NCBI RefSeq assembly: GCF_030013595.1
Contig: NZ_CP122768.1
DNA length: 64,000 nt
Reading direction: 5' to 3' (one strand)
Origin: Escherichia coli
Lineage (GTDB): Bacteria; Pseudomonadota; Gammaproteobacteria; Enterobacterales; Enterobacteriaceae
The position numbers are program-made. Shown piece by piece: positions 59,801-64,000 of the stretch. Numbering within the stretch: position 1 is the first letter of the stretch; every line of letters starts with the position of its first letter.

Positions 59801-62800
59801 AAACATGCTGGTAAATTCGTGCTTCAGGTTTGCGCATCCCCAGATCTTGCGACAGATAGATATGGTCAGCAGCATCACGAATTTCCGGGTATTCTTCCGG
59901 CCAGAAGGTGGTATGCAGGCGGTTGGTATTGGAAAGCACCACCACGCGATGCCCCTGCTCACGCAGTTTATGCATGATGGCGATCACTTCCGGGCGCAGC
60001 GCAACAAACACCGCCTGCCAGCCGTGAGAGAACTGCTCGTAGCTTAGCGGCAGGGCCATCTCATGACACAGCGCCTCTGCGAACGCTTCGTCGCTAATTT
60101 CCCCACGCTCATGCTGATGAAACGCCTCGCCCATGTGGAAACTCTTCTTAAGCGTAGCCAGTGGAACACGCGTTAAATCGCTCCAGGCTCCCAGCACACG
60201 GTTAAAGTCGATATCGACAATCACATTACCTAAATCAAAGATATAGAGCATTTTTGCCTCCTTTCGCGCCACAAGAAATTAACTGTAGCGGGAAAGGATG
60301 GGTTTGGCTATGTGGCAATAAGGGTAATCTTGTGATGCTGATTGCGAAAAAGCAGAGTAATTTCACTGGCTTTTTCGCAATAGATGAATGGTTAAGATTC
60401 AGGTGTAAATTGCCAACGAGTTTCGATGACCAGCGGCCTATCTGGTGTCACCAATTCCGGCGTTAGATTTATTGCGTTAGGTGCCTGAGTCAGCGGGTTA
60501 ATACAGGTGGCATCGGGCTGTTTATCAAATACCACCAGACTGTTTGCAGAAGAAATCATGGTCATCGCGAGTTTACCAGGCCACAGTAACTTAACCTTCA
60601 CCCCGTCATAAAAACCAAAACAGTCATCCCAGGGACCGGCTTGAGGAGAGATACGATTTCCAGTTGGCAGTTCATCACTACCCGCTTCTTCTTGCCAGTC
60701 TGCATCAAAAAGCACCTGCAACGATTCTGTATTTTGCGGAGTCAGCTTTTTCGCAAACCACGGATGCCAGCCTGCGGAGGCCGGGAATGTATCGGCATAT
60801 GAATGGACTTCCAGTTGCAAAACCAGCGCATCGTTCTCCAGCAAAAAAGTCTGAATCACTTCCCCTTGCCAGGGCCACGGTGAAGCCAGGGGCATACGTA
60901 AAGTCAGGGAATCTGCTGTTTTGTCGATGATTTCCCACGTTGAGTAACAAGCCATACCATGCAACGCATGTGGTGGTTTATTGGCGGGTAAAGAATAACA
61001 TTGCCCACCAGCATTCAGCGTCGCATTCCCCAGTCGCCCTGCCCACGGCACCATTGGGAAACAGCCATACTGAAAAGCTCTTCGCTGCGGCTGCCATTGG
61101 CGTAATACTTCAGAACCAAATGCCTTTAACGAGGTTATCCTGGCACCATCATGCGGATAAATCTGCAGGTGAATATTGCCTTTTTCCAGCGTCACTAACT
61201 CTCCTACAGGCCCAGGCCATGGCGCGTCAAACGCCTGTTGTAGCGCCAGGTAATGCTCGTTTTTTCGTTCAGTTTTCATGAGATTGTTCCCTTATGTAGC
61301 GGTAAGAAGCGGTTTCTTGTTCATCGGTCGGCTCAATCAGCCAGACGCAAACAAAGGAAAGAACTGAGACAGCAAATAAAAACAGAGCGACATACCACGG
61401 TTTTCCTCCCCCTAGCGCCAGCAAACTTGAGGCGATAAGGGGGCTTAGTCCGCCAAGAATCGCGGAAAATTGATAAGCAAAAGAAAGGCCGGTATATCGT
61501 ACTTTGGTACCGAACATGCGGGTGAAAAGTGTTGGCTGCACGGCAAACATCATCGTCGGACCTAAGTTGTAGCCGAGGATCATACTGCACCAGATGATGA
61601 GCGTACTTTTGCTATCCAATAATAAGAAGAAAGGAAACGCGAACAGGACACAAAATCCTGCTCCCGACAAATACAGACTTTTTTGACCTATACGATCTGA
61701 TAACCATCCAACCAATGGACAACTGAAAATACCGATCGCCGAGGCAATCAACATACCCGTCAGGGGAATATCTCGCGACAATGCTAATTGGCTGGAAATA
61801 TAGACAATACCAAAGGCGTTAATAATATTAGAGGAGACACTTTCCGCCAGCCTCGCACCCAGTGCCAATAAAATATTTCGTGGATGTTTTTTGAATAATT
61901 CAATCAACGGAGGAACGGACTTTTCTTTATTATTCGTCGTTTTTTGCTTTTGAAAATCCAGCGTTTCTTCGGTATGCAGGCGGATAAACAGCCCAACGAT
62001 CAACATCACCGCAGAAAGCCAAAACGGAATGCGCCATCCCCAGGAGAGAAACTGCTCCGAAGTAAGAAAATGGTTACAGAGAGCAAAAATACCGGTTGCC
62101 AGCATAATACCCACAGACGCAGCCGTTTGCGGGAGTGAACCTAAAAATCCGCGTCGGGATTCGGGCGCTGATTCTATGGTCATCAATGCCGCTCCGCCGT
62201 ACTCGCCACCAAGACCAAAGCCCTGAATTAAACGTAGCACCATTAATATGAGCGGTGCCCAAATGCCAATTTCCTGATACGTCGGAATAAAACCAATCAA
62301 AAATGTGGAGCAACCGACAATAGCCAGCGTCCAGATAAGTGTTATTTTTCGCCCGATTTTATCGCCAAAATGACCAAAGACGATGCCACCTAAAGGACGA
62401 GTCAGAAAACCAACACCAAAGGTCGCAAAGGAAGCTATAAGACCTATAAAAGGATCGCTGTCTGGATAAAACAGCGGTGCAAATACCAGTCCTGCTGCCG
62501 TGCCAAAAATAAAGAAGTCATACCATTCCATTAACGCGCCTGCGAAACTGCCCATAACGACACGTCTCATGGCTTTACCGGAAAGCCCTTCACGCGGTGC
62601 GGGTAACTTTTCAGACATAATTTTCCTCTCCTGGTAGGCGAGAAATCTGGGATACGAACCACTAAACGTGGGCAGTTTGAATTAATGCGCATCGGCTTAA
62701 ACCGATGCGCATTAAATTATTTCTTCAATTCAGCCAGAACCTCTGCGTCCTCAGCATCAACATTTGCACCCAGTGGTTCCCAATTAATCAATACACAGGT

Positions 62801-64000
62801 CAGGAATCCCAGGAATGGCACGATTGCCAACCAGTAAAACGCTTCAGTTTTCAACGCACCCCACAGCATCGGCCAGAAAATGAGTCCTGCAATTGCCCCT
62901 GTGCGCATAATAGCGCGGGCAAATCCGACCCCAGTAGGGCGAATAGCGGGAGGATAAGAGAGTGTGGCAATGGTCATGCCCAGCCCACCAGGACCCGCTG
63001 AATGGAAGAAAATAATTGATCCCAATAACCCTAAAGACAGCCAGGGATTAGTCGTTGCCAGTGCTCCTAACGACAGCAATGCTAAGGTCACAACAGCAAA
63101 TCCATACATCGACTGTCGGCGAGTACCCAGTCGTTGGAGAATAAACGAGCCGATCATCCCACCAGTCACCCCACAAAGGGCATTTACGACAGCAGAACCT
63201 GTCAACGCGCCAGTAAGCCCTCCGCTTATTATTCCCGCCAACGTAAGAGGAAGATAAACGCCTACGGCGTTATATTGCCACGCCTGCATGGTTGCCACGA
63301 CACAGCCAAGGATGGTGCGTTTGCGGTAACGATCATTAAATAAGATGCCATATCCACCACTGTATTTATTCTCTGCTTTTTCCGAGAATTTCGCTTCTGT
63401 TGTACCCGATGCCGCAACGCGAGCCTGAACACCATAACGTTTTCCCAGAATGTCGCACGCTTCCTGGTAACGCCCGACGCGTGCGGCCCACATTGCGGAT
63501 TCACCAATAAAAAAGTAACGCAAAATCATGAAGATGACTGCAAAAATAGCTCCGATGAATATTCCGTAACGCCACAATTGTTCTTCTGCGATACCCGACA
63601 GAAGCAGCGGCAAAAGCACCAAATAAACAACGGTTGTCGAAACATACCAGGCCATTTGCCAGAGGTTGACCGACGTTCCGGTTTTCTTCGACGTTGAACC
63701 ACGAAGCTCTGCCACGGCATTGGTTGCCAAAGGGAAGTCGATGCCTAAACCAAAGCCCATGATGACGCGGCACACCAGAACCCACCAGATACTGGGAGCA
63801 ATAGCTACCGCTGCAGCACCGATGGTGCACAGCCCCATGCCAATAATAAATGCCCGCTTTTGCCCAAAGCGGTTTATTACTCGGTTCGCTAATAAACCGC
63901 CAATTAACGCGGCGATTAATACTGACGCATTGACGGTTGCAGCAAGACCCGGAGAAATGCCGAATTGAGCGGCAATGTATTTATTACCAAACCCCACCAT

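What the first reader, a model, noticed from the sequence alone, without database searches (positions are those of the whole stretch)
60392..64000. Non-K-12 sugar module next to yihX: mutarotase-like epimerase co-transcribed with two MFS transporters
In K-12 yihX is followed by yihW and the sulfoquinovose catabolic cluster. Here the position is occupied by an aldose-1-epimerase-family gene whose start overlaps the stop of an MHS-family MFS transporter, preceded by a second MFS transporter that runs off the window. This is a strain-variable locus; the substrate is unknown and the full module extends beyond the window.
Basis: partly seen in the sequence, partly recalled or inferred. Interest (0 to 1): 0.55.

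Follow-up and report, generated by a model that had tools for sequence, protein, structure and literature searches.

The report
Overlooked front end of alternative yih module
The three genes are real and form the outer half of a conserved eight-gene sugar-breakdown module that replaces K-12's sulfoquinovose cluster in about a quarter of E. coli strains; it most likely feeds an unidentified sulfonated sugar into the same downstream steps through a different entry enzyme.

Summary
Window 60392-61279 (-) encodes a mutarotase-fold protein. It overlaps by 11 nt an MHS-type MFS transporter (61269-62618). A second MFS transporter (62717 onward) runs off the window. K-12 homology stops at window 60318.

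An identical genome shows an 8.64-kb block between yihX and yihN: reductase, aldolase, Zn-dependent dehydrogenase, MFS2, MFS1 and epimerase-like, with divergent kinase and DeoR genes. Four products are 67-73% identical to YihU, YihT, YihV and CsqR and keep every published sulfonate-pocket residue. YihS, YihQ, YihO, YihP and OmpL are absent.

A 2025 paper called this a truncated "short yihTUVW cassette" not induced by sulfoquinovose, and did not mention the other four genes. Those four form an invariant block in every complete cluster found in alpha-, beta- and gammaproteobacteria. It is always joined to a kinase, an aldolase (class I or II) and a reductase, and is under strong purifying selection.

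The module is in 1327 of 5426 complete E. coli genomes. The epimerase-like protein has Asn where mutarotases have their catalytic Glu.

Best reading, untested: an isomerase- and sulfoquinovosidase-independent variant of sulfo-EMP glycolysis in which a polyol-type Zn dehydrogenase makes sulfofructose. The substrate is unknown.

The parts
59652..60251 (-). yihX (glucose-1-phosphatase). Conserved flank, not part of the module.
   Evidence: PGAP annotation of the identical genome. It lies in a segment 97.6% identical to K-12 at the DNA level.
60319..64000 (.). Part inside the window of the 8.64-kb block specific to the alternative locus form. The block continues to the equivalent of window position 68958.
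   Evidence: blastn against K-12. Flank homology of 97.6% ends at window 60318. It resumes at 98.9% at L001 29960, 51 nt past the yihN stop.
60339..60379 (-). Inverted repeat ATTGCGAAAAAGC(15 nt)GCTTTTTCGCAAT just downstream of the epimerase-like stop codon. Possibly the end of the operon.
   Evidence: Read directly from the sequence. It is not followed by a U-run and its function was not tested.
60392..61279 (-). Epimerase-like protein (295 aa) with a galactose-mutarotase fold. H107, H172 and D218 are retained. Asn261 sits at the position of the catalytic Glu. It is the last gene of the operon.
   Evidence: Pfam PF01263 at E 6e-22 over residues 28-213 only. AlphaFold model pLDDT 90; Foldseek TM 0.78 to 3nre and 0.80 to 4bze. 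Catalytic-residue alignment. 27% identical to YihR. NCBIfam YihR equivalog 33.9 bits against a cutoff of 251.
61269..62618 (-). MFS1 (449 aa), a metabolite:H+ symporter (MHS)-type transporter. Proposed importer of the anionic substrate.
   Evidence: NCBIfam TIGR00883 407 bits (cutoff 443) and ShiA PRK09952 410 bits (cutoff 538). Always adjacent to the epimerase-like gene in orthologous loci, at 59-99% identity. dN/dS 0.03-0.04. The importer role is inferred.
62682..62715 (.). 34-nt perfect palindrome (14-bp stem, 6-nt loop) immediately after the MFS2 stop, in the 98-nt gap before MFS1.
   Evidence: No U-run follows on the gene strand, so it is not a classical terminator. It could be an mRNA-stabilising hairpin or a protein-binding site. 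This was not tested.
62717..64000 (-). MFS2 (C-terminal 427 of 477 aa; the gene ends at the equivalent of window 64150). A distant aromatic-acid/sugar-porter-type MFS. Proposed exporter of the C3 sulfonate product.
   Evidence: NCBIfam gives only weak subfamily hits, at most 105 bits. Conserved at 62-99% identity in all orthologous loci. dN/dS 0.02-0.04. The exporter role is inferred by analogy with the YihO/YihP pair.

Best explanation
The three genes are the distal half of a six-gene operon: YihU-like reductase, YihT-like aldolase, Zn-dependent dehydrogenase, MFS2, MFS1 and an epimerase-like protein. Together with a divergently transcribed YihV-like kinase and a CsqR-like DeoR repressor, this makes an eight-gene catabolic module. 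The module is an alternative allele of the K-12 yih (sulfoquinovose) cluster at the same chromosomal site.

Proposed mechanism:

1. An anionic sulfonated hexose derivative enters through the MHS-type transporter MFS1. It is not a sulfoquinovose glycoside and is probably not free sulfoquinovose.
2. The polyol-dehydrogenase-type Zn enzyme oxidises it to 6-deoxy-6-sulfofructose, doing the job of the missing isomerase YihS. The most economical candidate substrate is a 6-sulfo-hexitol such as 6-deoxy-6-sulfoglucitol.
3. The mutarotase-fold protein handles the ring or anomeric form of the sugar next to this step.
4. The kinase makes sulfofructose-1-phosphate, and the aldolase splits it into DHAP and sulfolactaldehyde.
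5. The reductase makes dihydroxypropanesulfonate (DHPS), which leaves through MFS2.

Shown here: gene content, linkage, conservation, selection, and retention of the sulfonate-pocket residues in the back-end enzymes.

Inferred: the substrate, the dehydrogenase reaction, the direction of each transporter, and the role of the epimerase-like protein.
For: **(1) Module structure.** Six co-oriented genes have gaps of -11, 98, 69, 32 and 24 nt. A 172-nt divergent region separates them from the kinase and DeoR genes. No internal promoter signal exceeds the shuffled-sequence expectation.

**(2) The back end is sulfo-EMP-like.** The aldolase is 67% identical to YihT, the reductase 73% to YihU, the kinase 67% to YihV and the regulator 72% to CsqR. 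The reductase passes NCBI's sulfolactaldehyde-reductase equivalog at 580 bits against a cutoff of 348. Every sulfonate-pocket or catalytic residue defined crystallographically in PMC8006165 is retained: YihV K27/N109/R138/D244, YihT K193/R253/A26/S226/S227, YihU R123/N174/S178.

**(3) The front end is one unit with the back end.** Every epimerase orthologue at 45% identity or more whose contig extended far enough upstream (proteobacterial loci L003, L005/6, L011-L028, L030-L036, L038, L045) has the Zn-ADH, MFS2 and MFS1 directly upstream, except the decayed remnant L037. Where the flank extends far enough there is also a kinase, an aldolase and a beta-hydroxyacid-type reductase. This holds even where those are non-orthologous: class II aldolase in Budvicia, Pantoea and Vibrio, and a different kinase and reductase lineage in alphaproteobacteria. 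No locus has YihS or YihQ.

**(4) Purifying selection** acts on all eight genes, with dN/dS 0.02-0.15, similar to the flanking yihX and yihY.

**(5) Zn-ADH identity.** It has the catalytic and structural zinc signatures. Its closest solved relatives are RspB, ketose reductase/sorbitol dehydrogenase, IdnD and GatD. These enzymes oxidise a secondary alcohol of a polyol or sugar acid to a ketone. L-gulonate to D-fructuronate (PMC5788505) is the carboxylate analogue of sulfoglucitol to sulfofructose.

**(6) Transporter type.** MHS-family transporters carry organic anions (family knowledge; hits).

**(7) Published data.** The regulator of this module releases DNA in response to sulfoquinovose in vitro, but less well than CsqR. 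The operon is not induced by sulfoquinovose in Nissle 1917 (PMC12608037). All docking-predicted effector residues of CsqR are conserved. This fits a related but different sulfosugar effector.
Against: - No biochemical or genetic test exists for any front-end protein.
- No natural source of a 6-sulfo-hexitol is known to me, and none was found in the literature.
- A polyol substrate does not obviously need a mutarotase-fold protein.
- That protein lacks the catalytic Glu in E. coli (Asn261) and in 73 of 110 family members, so its role is unclear.
- In the alphaproteobacterial versions the kinase and reductase do not carry the YihV and YihU pocket residues. The substrate may not be the same everywhere, or the pocket may be built differently.
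- Absence of induction by sulfoquinovose was shown in one strain under one condition.
- Transporter directions are assigned only by analogy.
Confidence: 0.5

Rival explanations
1. Free sulfoquinovose is the substrate. The Zn-ADH and the mutarotase-fold protein together replace the isomerase YihS, for example by reduction then oxidation through sulfoglucitol, or by ring-opening followed by redox isomerisation. The operon is expressed at a roughly constant level, so it does not appear as differentially expressed.
For: Nissle 1917 grew on sulfoquinovose about as well as K-12 although it has no YihS, and the authors found no alternative pathway (PMC12608037). Its regulator binds DNA weakly at 37 C and responds to sulfoquinovose in vitro, which fits leaky or constitutive expression. 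A mutarotase-fold protein makes sense for an aldose substrate. The sulfonate pockets of the back end are intact.
Against: There was no induction by sulfoquinovose, and yihU was apparently repressed. Growth of both strains was poor and came with starvation-type transcriptomes. No known Zn-ADH performs a net aldose-ketose isomerisation. The catalytic Glu needed for mutarotation is missing. None of the front-end genes appears in the held supplement's lists of genes differentially expressed on sulfoquinovose in Nissle.
Confidence: 0.2
2. The four front-end genes are an independent sugar or polyol oxidation unit (importer, dehydrogenase, mutarotase, second transporter). They sit next to a leftover yihTUVW fragment and do not share a pathway with it.
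For: An epimerase-like gene also sits next to a Zn-dehydrogenase gene in the unrelated K-12 yphB-yphC pair. The published description treats yihTUVW as a self-contained short cassette.
Against: The front block is never found without a kinase, an aldolase and a reductase in any locus with enough flank. These partners are kept even when replaced by non-orthologous versions, which is the signature of one pathway. In E. coli all six genes are packed in one transcription unit. The yihTUVW-like part is only 65-67% identical to K-12 at the DNA level, so it is not a recent leftover.
Confidence: 0.1
3. The module degrades a non-sulfonated anionic sugar, such as a uronate-type or other sugar acid or a phosphonate analogue. 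The resemblance to the sulfo-EMP enzymes would then reflect common ancestry only.
For: YihU belongs to the tartronate-semialdehyde / 3-hydroxyisobutyrate reductase family. The Zn-ADH's nearest relatives act on sugar acids. The alphaproteobacterial kinase and reductase lack the YihV and YihU pocket residues. Sulfoquinovose does not induce the operon.
Against: In E. coli every crystallographically defined sulfonate-pocket residue is retained in all three back-end enzymes. The reductase passes the curated sulfolactaldehyde-reductase cutoff. The regulator responds to sulfoquinovose in vitro. The class I aldolase pocket is conserved in all 11 lineages checked.
Confidence: 0.12
4. The locus is a decaying, functionless remnant of the K-12-type cassette.
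For: There is no transcriptional response to sulfoquinovose in Nissle. A deletion derivative exists in a minority of genomes, as does a remnant in a Succinatimonas MAG (metagenome-assembled genome).
Against: The genes are intact in 1327 complete genomes. dN/dS of 0.02-0.15 matches housekeeping flanks. The same eight functions are conserved across three proteobacterial classes. DNA identity of 65-67% to K-12 over the shared genes, against 98% in the flanks, excludes recent truncation.
Confidence: 0.03

Closest known systems
E. coli K-12 yih cluster (sulfo-EMP1 pathway: YihO/P/Q/R/S/T/U/V, CsqR, OmpL)
   Same: It occupies the same chromosomal site between yihX and yihN. It has the same divergent layout, with a reductase-led operon opposite kinase and regulator genes. 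Aldolase, reductase, kinase and repressor are homologous at 67-73% identity with all sulfonate-pocket residues retained. It also has two transporters and one mutarotase-fold protein.
   Different: It has no sulfoquinovosidase (YihQ), no isomerase (YihS) and no porin (OmpL). A Zn-dependent polyol-type dehydrogenase sits in their place. The transporters are MHS-type and another MFS type, not GPH family. The mutarotase-fold protein is only 27% identical to YihR and lacks the catalytic Glu. The block is inverted relative to the flanks. Sulfoquinovose does not induce it in Nissle 1917.
'Short yih cassette (yihTUVW)' of Kaznadzey et al. 2025 (PMC12608037)
   Same: It is the same locus: same site, reversed orientation, a regulator 72% identical to CsqR, and presence in B2 and pathogenic strains.
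   Different: The paper defines the cassette as four genes, treats it as a truncation that lost its sulfoquinovose function, and never mentions the Zn-ADH, the two MFS genes or the epimerase-like gene. Here these four are shown to be the invariant core of an eight-gene module conserved across proteobacterial classes.
Hybrid sulfo-EMP1/2 clusters (Sharma et al. 2023, PMC10665668)
   Same: Orthologous modules show the same interchange of class I (YihT-type) and class II (SqiA-type) aldolases, and the same mixing of enzyme lineages for a given step.
   Different: All described sulfo-EMP variants contain a sulfoquinovose isomerase (YihS or SqvD) and usually a sulfoquinovosidase. This module has neither, and has a Zn-ADH that none of them uses at the entry step.
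L-gulonate 5-dehydrogenase-type entry (HiGulD; RspB-like Zn dehydrogenases)
   Same: An anionic hexitol-like substrate is oxidised at the carbon next to the primary alcohol to give the 2-ketose (L-gulonate to D-fructuronate). This is the carboxylate analogue of the proposed sulfoglucitol-to-sulfofructose step. RspB is the closest solved relative of the module's Zn-ADH.
   Different: The sequence relationship is only at family level (132 bits to RspB, below every NCBIfam equivalog cutoff). The downstream pathway differs: dehydratase plus KDG route there, kinase plus aldolase plus reductase here. That HiGulD is a Zn-type ADH is my recollection of its UniProt name and was not shown by the tools.
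E. coli K-12 YphB-YphC pair
   Same: A mutarotase-fold protein (YphB, the closest solved structure, TM 0.78) is encoded next to a Zn-binding dehydrogenase and a transporter.
   Different: Identities are low: 23% for the dehydrogenases and about 26% for the epimerase-like proteins. The yph cluster has an ABC transporter and no kinase, aldolase or reductase. Its function is unknown. YphB retains the catalytic Glu.

Membership tests
Aldose 1-epimerase / galactose mutarotase family (PF01263) | Significant match to the family profile | tested here: met
   Pfam Aldose_epim at E 6.2e-22, but covering only residues 28-213 and model positions 2-196 of 299.
Aldose 1-epimerase / galactose mutarotase family (PF01263) | Galactose-mutarotase beta-sandwich fold | tested here: met
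   AlphaFold model pLDDT 90, pTM 0.90. Foldseek TM 0.78 to YphB 3nre, 0.80 to B. subtilis GalM and about 0.75 to L. lactis GalM.
Aldose 1-epimerase / galactose mutarotase family (PF01263) | The two conserved active-site histidines (HsSQM His92/His162; GalM His104/His175) | tested here: met
   H107 and H172 align with them and are invariant in 110 of 110 family members. The definition of the residues comes from PMC5902678.
Aldose 1-epimerase / galactose mutarotase family (PF01263) | Catalytic general-base glutamate (HsSQM Glu254; GalM Glu309; L. lactis Glu304) | tested here: not met
   Asn261 (motif CINP) aligns with the Glu of YihR (VEP), YphB (LEP) and GalM (LES). Across 110 family members the position is N in 73, E in 36 and A in 1.
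Aldose 1-epimerase / galactose mutarotase family (PF01263) | Mutarotase activity | not testable with these tools
   Needs NMR exchange spectroscopy or polarimetry with the purified protein.
Sulfoquinovose mutarotase YihR (orthologue) | Score above the curated equivalog cutoff, or close sequence identity | tested here: not met
   NCBIfam PRK15172 scores 33.9 bits against a cutoff of 251. Identity is 27% over 164 aa.
Sulfoquinovose mutarotase YihR (orthologue) | Encoded with a sulfoquinovosidase and a sulfoquinovose-consuming enzyme (isomerase or dehydrogenase) | tested here: not met
   No YihQ or YihS within 10 kb in any of about 30 orthologous loci. None elsewhere in short-cassette E. coli genomes according to PMC12608037.
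Metabolite:H+ symporter (MHS) family of MFS (for MFS1) | Match to the MHS subfamily model | tested here: inconclusive
   TIGR00883 scores 407 bits at E 7e-122 over the full length, but the curated cutoff is 443. The ShiA equivalog scores 410 bits against a cutoff of 538, so MFS1 is not a ShiA orthologue.
GPH-family transporters YihO/YihP (for MFS1 and MFS2) | Homology to YihO or YihP | tested here: not met
   No tblastn match at E 1e-10 or better in any module locus from other genomes. Only a 42-bit partial GPH domain hit for MFS1.
Sulfo-EMP pathway (module level) | Sulfofructose kinase with the K27-N109-R138 sulfonate triad and catalytic D244 | tested here: met
   67% identical to YihV in an ungapped alignment with all residues retained.
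Sulfo-EMP pathway (module level) | Sulfofructose-1-phosphate aldolase with Schiff-base K193 and the R253/A26/S226/S227 pocket | tested here: met
   67% identical to YihT with all residues retained, both here and in 10 other lineages.
Sulfo-EMP pathway (module level) | Sulfolactaldehyde reductase (curated equivalog; N174/S178/R123 pocket) | tested here: met
   NF012005 scores 580 bits against a cutoff of 348. 73% identical to YihU with the pocket residues retained.
Sulfo-EMP pathway (module level) | Sulfoquinovose isomerase (YihS or SqvD) | tested here: not met
   Absent from the locus and from all orthologous loci.
Sulfo-EMP pathway (module level) | Induction by, and growth dependence on, sulfoquinovose | tested here: not met
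   From the literature only. There was no induction of the short-cassette genes in Nissle 1917 on sulfoquinovose by RNA-seq and qRT-PCR (PMC12608037). Growth dependence has never been tested by knockout.
Polyol-dehydrogenase clade of Zn-dependent medium-chain dehydrogenases (for the partner Zn-ADH, outside the window) | Catalytic Zn ligands (Cys in GICGSD, His-Glu in GHE, Glu in EP) and similarity to polyol or sugar-acid dehydrogenases | tested here: met
   The motifs align with RspB and ketose reductase. Best hits are RspB, ketose reductase/sorbitol dehydrogenase, IolM, Tdh, IdnD and GatD, all below equivalog cutoffs. Substrate was not tested.

The most novel reading that the evidence does not exclude
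The Zn-ADH, MFS2, MFS1 and mutarotase-fold block is a previously unrecognised entry route into sulfoglycolysis. A dehydrogenase, not an isomerase, generates sulfofructose from a sulfonated sugar or sugar alcohol whose natural occurrence has not yet been described. The mutarotase-fold protein would have lost its general base and been repurposed, for example to present the open-chain or a specific ring form to its partner enzyme. This would reveal a new sulfosugar nutrient used by about a quarter of E. coli (ST131, EPEC E2348/69, HS, and by inference Nissle 1917) and by gut Sutterella and Succinivibrionaceae. [quoted passage not shown]
Probability: 0.35. Interest if true: 0.75.

Novelty: new variant of a known kind. 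Interest (0 to 1): 0.6.

Why it matters
Sulfoquinovose breakdown by gut bacteria feeds sulfonate-respiring organisms that make hydrogen sulfide, and E. coli is the textbook sulfo-EMP organism. About a quarter of complete E. coli genomes carry this alternative module instead, including major pathogenic and commensal lineages (and the probiotic Nissle 1917, by inference).

The only paper on it describes half of the module and concludes that it has lost its function. Recognising it as an intact, selected eight-gene pathway with its own entry enzyme and transporters has three consequences:

- It turns an unexplained negative result into a testable hypothesis.
- It points to an unknown sulfonated substrate in gut and soil.
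- It warns against scoring 'sulfoglycolysis potential' in genomes and metagenomes from yihT, yihU and yihV homologues alone.

Tried and rejected
- **RNA families:** an Rfam scan of window 60000-64000 at E up to 1 found nothing.
- **Literature by accession:** a search for the six RefSeq protein accessions found no paper.
- **Literature by compound:** a search for sulfoquinovitol, sulfosorbitol, sulfoglucitol or 6-deoxy-6-sulfo-D-glucitol found no paper using any of these names.
- **2026 review:** the sulfoquinovose catabolism review (PMC12890257) does not mention Nissle, the short cassette or a Zn-ADH entry step.
- **Class II aldolase survey:** PMC10665668 does not describe this variant.
- **Supplement of PMC12608037:** the held supplement, which lists differentially expressed genes, names no front-end gene. 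I found no absolute expression values, so constitutive expression cannot be excluded.
- **Source annotations:** they give only generic names for the four front-end proteins.
- **Distant relatives:** epimerase homologues in Streptomyces and Streptacidiphilus (37-45% identity) and in Xanthomonadaceae (32-36%) sit in other gene contexts. I excluded them from the module.
- **Succinatimonas locus L037:** it looked like a variant cluster but is a remnant beside a TnpB element.
- **Promoter and terminator scans:** they gave no signal above the shuffled expectation and were not used as evidence.
- **'Recent truncation of the K-12 cassette':** rejected, because the shared genes are only 65-67% identical at the DNA level while the flanks are 98% identical.
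- **Nissle 1917 itself:** I did not confirm the eight-gene block directly in a Nissle genome record. The identification rests on matching locus, orientation and the 72% regulator identity reported in the paper.

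
Full report
**1. What is in the window.**
The minus strand of window 60392-64000 carries three ORFs exactly as described.

- A 295-aa protein at 60392-61279.
- A 449-aa MFS transporter at 61269-62618. Its stop overlaps the start of the first gene by 11 nt.
- The C-terminal 427 residues of a second MFS transporter from 62717 to the window edge.

Window 59000-64000 is 100% identical to E. coli strain HCP5S3_I2, where NCBI's PGAP pipeline annotates the same genes as 'aldose 1-epimerase' and two 'MFS transporter' genes next to yihX.

The genes are not K-12 yih genes. 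The first protein is 27% identical to YihR over 164 residues. It scores 33.9 bits on the YihR equivalog model, whose cutoff is 251. The transporters belong to MFS families other than the GPH family of YihO and YihP. Homology to K-12 at 97.6% ends at window 60318, in the yihX upstream region.

**2. What lies beyond the window.**
In the identical genome the K-12-unrelated block is 8.64 kb long and fills the whole interval between yihX and yihN.

Read along the operon strand it encodes a YihU-like reductase, a YihT-like aldolase, a Zn-dependent alcohol dehydrogenase, MFS2, MFS1 and the epimerase-like protein. The intergenic distances are 24, 32, 69, 98 and -11 nt. On the other side of a 172-nt divergent region lie a PfkB kinase and a DeoR regulator.

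Four of the eight proteins are diverged homologues of K-12 sulfo-EMP components:

| Module protein | K-12 homologue | Identity |
|---|---|---|
| Aldolase | YihT | 67% |
| Reductase | YihU | 73% |
| Kinase | YihV | 67% |
| Regulator | CsqR | 72% |

There is no sulfoquinovosidase (YihQ), isomerase (YihS), YihO, YihP or OmpL. The shared genes are only 65-67% identical to K-12 at the DNA level and are inverted relative to flanks that are 98% identical. This is an old xenologous alternative and not a recent deletion derivative.

**3. Relation to the literature.**
Kaznadzey et al. [quoted passage not shown] The short form sits at the same site in reversed orientation, is enriched in pathogens and is present in Nissle 1917.

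In Nissle its genes are not induced by sulfoquinovose. Its regulator, 72% identical to CsqR, binds DNA and responds to sulfoquinovose more weakly. The authors conclude that the short cassette is no longer involved in sulfoquinovose degradation.

The text never mentions the Zn-ADH, the two MFS genes or the epimerase-like gene. The held supplement lists none of them. No other paper in the library treats them. So the locus is published, but the part that constitutes this finding is not.

**4. The eight genes are one module.**
I collected homologues of the epimerase-like protein. I examined their neighbourhoods by exact look-up and by a scan of one genome per species, then searched all loci with the eight E. 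coli proteins and the K-12 proteins.

Every orthologue at 45% identity or more whose contig reaches far enough upstream, apart from the decayed remnant L037, has the Zn-ADH (56-97% identity), MFS2 (62-99%) and MFS1 (59-99%) directly upstream. The hosts include:

- Escherichia sp., Citrobacter, Mixta, Phytobacter, Erwinia, Trabulsiella, Budvicia, Leminorella, Pantoea and Vibrio (gamma).
- Sutterella and Propionivibrio (beta).
- Rhodopseudomonas palustris, Pleomorphomonas, Roseospira and Telmatospirillum (alpha).
- Succinivibrionaceae.

In all loci with enough flank the block is joined to a kinase, an aldolase and a beta-hydroxyacid-dehydrogenase-type reductase, and in nearly all of them a DeoR regulator is also detected. 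These partners are interchangeable. Several lineages have a class II ketose-bisphosphate aldolase in place of the YihT-type class I enzyme, the same swap known from hybrid sulfo-EMP clusters (PMC10665668). The alphaproteobacterial group uses a kinase and a reductase only about 30% identical to the E. coli ones.

A constant front end coupled to a functionally constant but phylogenetically replaceable back end is strong evidence for a single pathway. None of the loci has YihS or YihQ.

All eight genes are under purifying selection. dN/dS is 0.02-0.15 against Escherichia sp., Citrobacter and Mixta, the same range as flanking yihX and yihY. This excludes a decaying remnant.

**5. Distribution in E. 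coli.**

- Front-end DNA is present at 80% coverage or more in 1327 of 5426 complete genomes. These include ST131, EPEC E2348/69, commensal HS, ATCC 8739 and APEC O78.
- The K-12-type front end (ompL to yihS) is in 3879 genomes.
- Among the 57 genomes with only a partial match, the one examined carries a deletion scar of the alternative form: 44 nt of the epimerase 3' end plus fragments of the kinase and regulator genes between yihX and yihN.
- The module occupies the same yihX-proximal site in a cryptic Escherichia clade, several Citrobacter species and Phytobacter. The dimorphism is therefore old.

**6. The back end is built for sulfonates.**
Crystal structures define sulfonate pockets in the K-12 and Salmonella enzymes (PMC8006165):

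- YihV: K27, N109 and R138, with catalytic D244.
- YihT: Schiff-base K193, with R253, A26, S226 and S227.
- YihU: N174, S178 and R123.

The alignments of the module proteins to K-12 are ungapped, and every one of these residues is retained. The reductase passes NCBI's curated sulfolactaldehyde-reductase model at 580 bits against a cutoff of 348.

The residues that docking predicts to contact the effector in CsqR are also all identical in the module's regulator. That is weak evidence, since it rests on docking.

In the alphaproteobacterial lineage the kinase and reductase carry other residues at these positions, while the class I aldolase pocket is conserved in all 11 lineages checked.

**7. 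The front end.**
*The Zn-ADH.* It has the catalytic-zinc signature and a structural-zinc Cys cluster. Its closest solved relatives are RspB, whitefly ketose reductase, threonine dehydrogenases, sorbitol dehydrogenases, GatD and IdnD. It is below every NCBIfam equivalog cutoff. Apart from the threonine dehydrogenases, these enzymes oxidise a secondary alcohol of a polyol or sugar acid.

A documented analogue is the oxidation of L-gulonate to D-fructuronate by HiGulD (PMC5788505). Replacing the carboxylate by CH2-SO3 gives 6-deoxy-6-sulfoglucitol to sulfofructose. That HiGulD is a Zn-type ADH is my recollection of its database name and was not shown by the tools.

*MFS1.* It is MHS-like: 407 bits on TIGR00883 (just under the cutoff of 443) and 410 bits on the ShiA model (cutoff 538). 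From family knowledge, MHS transporters take up organic anions.

*MFS2.* It has only weak subfamily similarity.

*The epimerase-like protein.* It matches Pfam Aldose_epim at E 6e-22 over its first two-thirds. It is confidently predicted (pLDDT 90) to adopt the galactose-mutarotase fold, with TM 0.78 to E. coli YphB and 0.80 to B. subtilis GalM. It keeps the two active-site histidines (H107, H172) and D218, which are invariant in 110 relatives.

At the position of the general-base glutamate it has Asn261. That Glu is described as strictly conserved in hexose and sulfoquinovose mutarotases (PMC5902678). The family as a whole has N in 73, E in 36 and A in 1 member, switching repeatedly along the similarity ranking. 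It is also the fastest-evolving gene of the module.

So it belongs to the fold and the Pfam family but fails one defining catalytic feature. Whether it is an active mutarotase is open.

In K-12 the closest solved relative, YphB, is also encoded next to a Zn-binding dehydrogenase, YphC. The two dehydrogenases are only 23% identical.

**8. Most likely mechanism.**
The module is an isomerase- and sulfoquinovosidase-independent variant of sulfo-EMP glycolysis.

1. An anionic sulfonated hexose derivative is imported, probably by MFS1.
2. The Zn-ADH converts it to sulfofructose.
3. The kinase phosphorylates sulfofructose.
4. The aldolase cleaves the product into DHAP and sulfolactaldehyde.
5. The reductase reduces sulfolactaldehyde to DHPS.
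6. DHPS is exported, probably by MFS2.

A sulfo-hexitol substrate would also balance redox: one NADH is made at entry and one is consumed at sulfolactaldehyde reduction.

Steps 3 to 5 are supported by homology and pocket conservation. The other steps are inferred. I put 0.5 on the general statement and about 0.3 on the specific sulfo-hexitol step.

**9. Rival explanations.**
- **Free sulfoquinovose is the substrate and the operon is constitutively expressed (0.2).** This would explain why Nissle grows on sulfoquinovose without YihS. It lacks a known chemical route, and growth in that study was poor with starvation-like transcriptomes.
- **Front and back halves are unrelated neighbours (0.1).** This is contradicted by the universal co-occurrence.
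- **A non-sulfonated substrate (0.12).** This is contradicted for E. coli by the pocket residues and by the regulator's in vitro response to sulfoquinovose.
- **A functionless remnant (0.03).** This is contradicted by the selection and conservation data.

**10. Novelty and verdict.**
The locus dimorphism and half of the module are published. Identifying the three genes of this finding, plus the Zn-ADH, as the conserved defining core of an eight-gene pathway is not in the searched literature, and neither is the atypical active site of the mutarotase-fold protein.

It is a new variant of a known kind of system, with an unknown substrate. It is of real interest to people working on sulfoglycolysis and E. 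coli niche metabolism, and directly testable. Interest 0.6.

Noticed in passing
window 55136-56950 (-): A 604-aa ORF between fabY and yiiE with no match in Pfam, NCBIfam or PDB sequences. It contains a CX5R-like motif (CKSAKDR) reminiscent of phosphoinositide or protein phosphatases. That resemblance is from memory and was not tested. PGAP splits it into a 'transposase' and a partial 'hypothetical protein' pseudogene in the identical genome. K-12 annotates nothing between fabY and yiiE. In strain GDSC2227PM the same region is interrupted by IS1.
   Followed up: partly
L090 9001-9435 (E. coli GDSC2227PM, between yihX and yihN): A third state of the locus. About 650 bp remain between yihX and yihN, holding the last 44 nt of the epimerase-like gene fused to fragments of the PfkB kinase and DeoR genes. 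This is a deletion scar of the alternative module. 57 complete genomes show only such partial matches.
   Followed up: partly
window 62682-62715: A perfect 34-nt palindrome (TTAATGCGCATCGG-TTTAAG-CCGATGCGCATTAA on the gene strand) directly after the MFS2 stop codon, with no U-run following it. It could be an intra-operon RNA hairpin or a protein-binding site. Its conservation in other species was not examined.
   Followed up: no
L009 5817-7762 (K-12 yphB-yphC): K-12's own uncharacterised yph operon pairs a mutarotase-fold protein (YphB, the closest solved relative of the epimerase-like protein) with a Zn-binding dehydrogenase (YphC) and an ABC sugar transporter. Pairing of a mutarotase-fold protein with a Zn-ADH may be a recurrent two-enzyme unit.
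   Followed up: partly
L003, L023, L027, L030, L031 (alphaproteobacteria and Propionivibrio): These versions of the module keep the front block and a YihT-like aldolase (71-74% identical). They use a kinase and a reductase only about 30% identical to the E. coli ones, with R-T-E in place of K-N-R in the kinase and S/G in place of N/S in the reductase at the sulfonate-pocket positions. This is either a different way of binding the same group or a different substrate.
   Followed up: partly
L037 4416-7847 (Succinatimonas MAG): A remnant of the module. Only the DeoR and epimerase-like genes remain, next to an IS200/IS605-type TnpB gene.
   Followed up: yes
L047-L089 (Xanthomonadaceae: Stenotrophomonas, Pseudoxanthomonas, Lysobacter): More distant relatives of the epimerase-like protein (31-36% identity), mostly from Xanthomonadaceae, usually have about 2.5 kb upstream a GPH-family transporter 23-27% identical to YihO and YihP. 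This is a different and apparently undescribed context.
   Followed up: no
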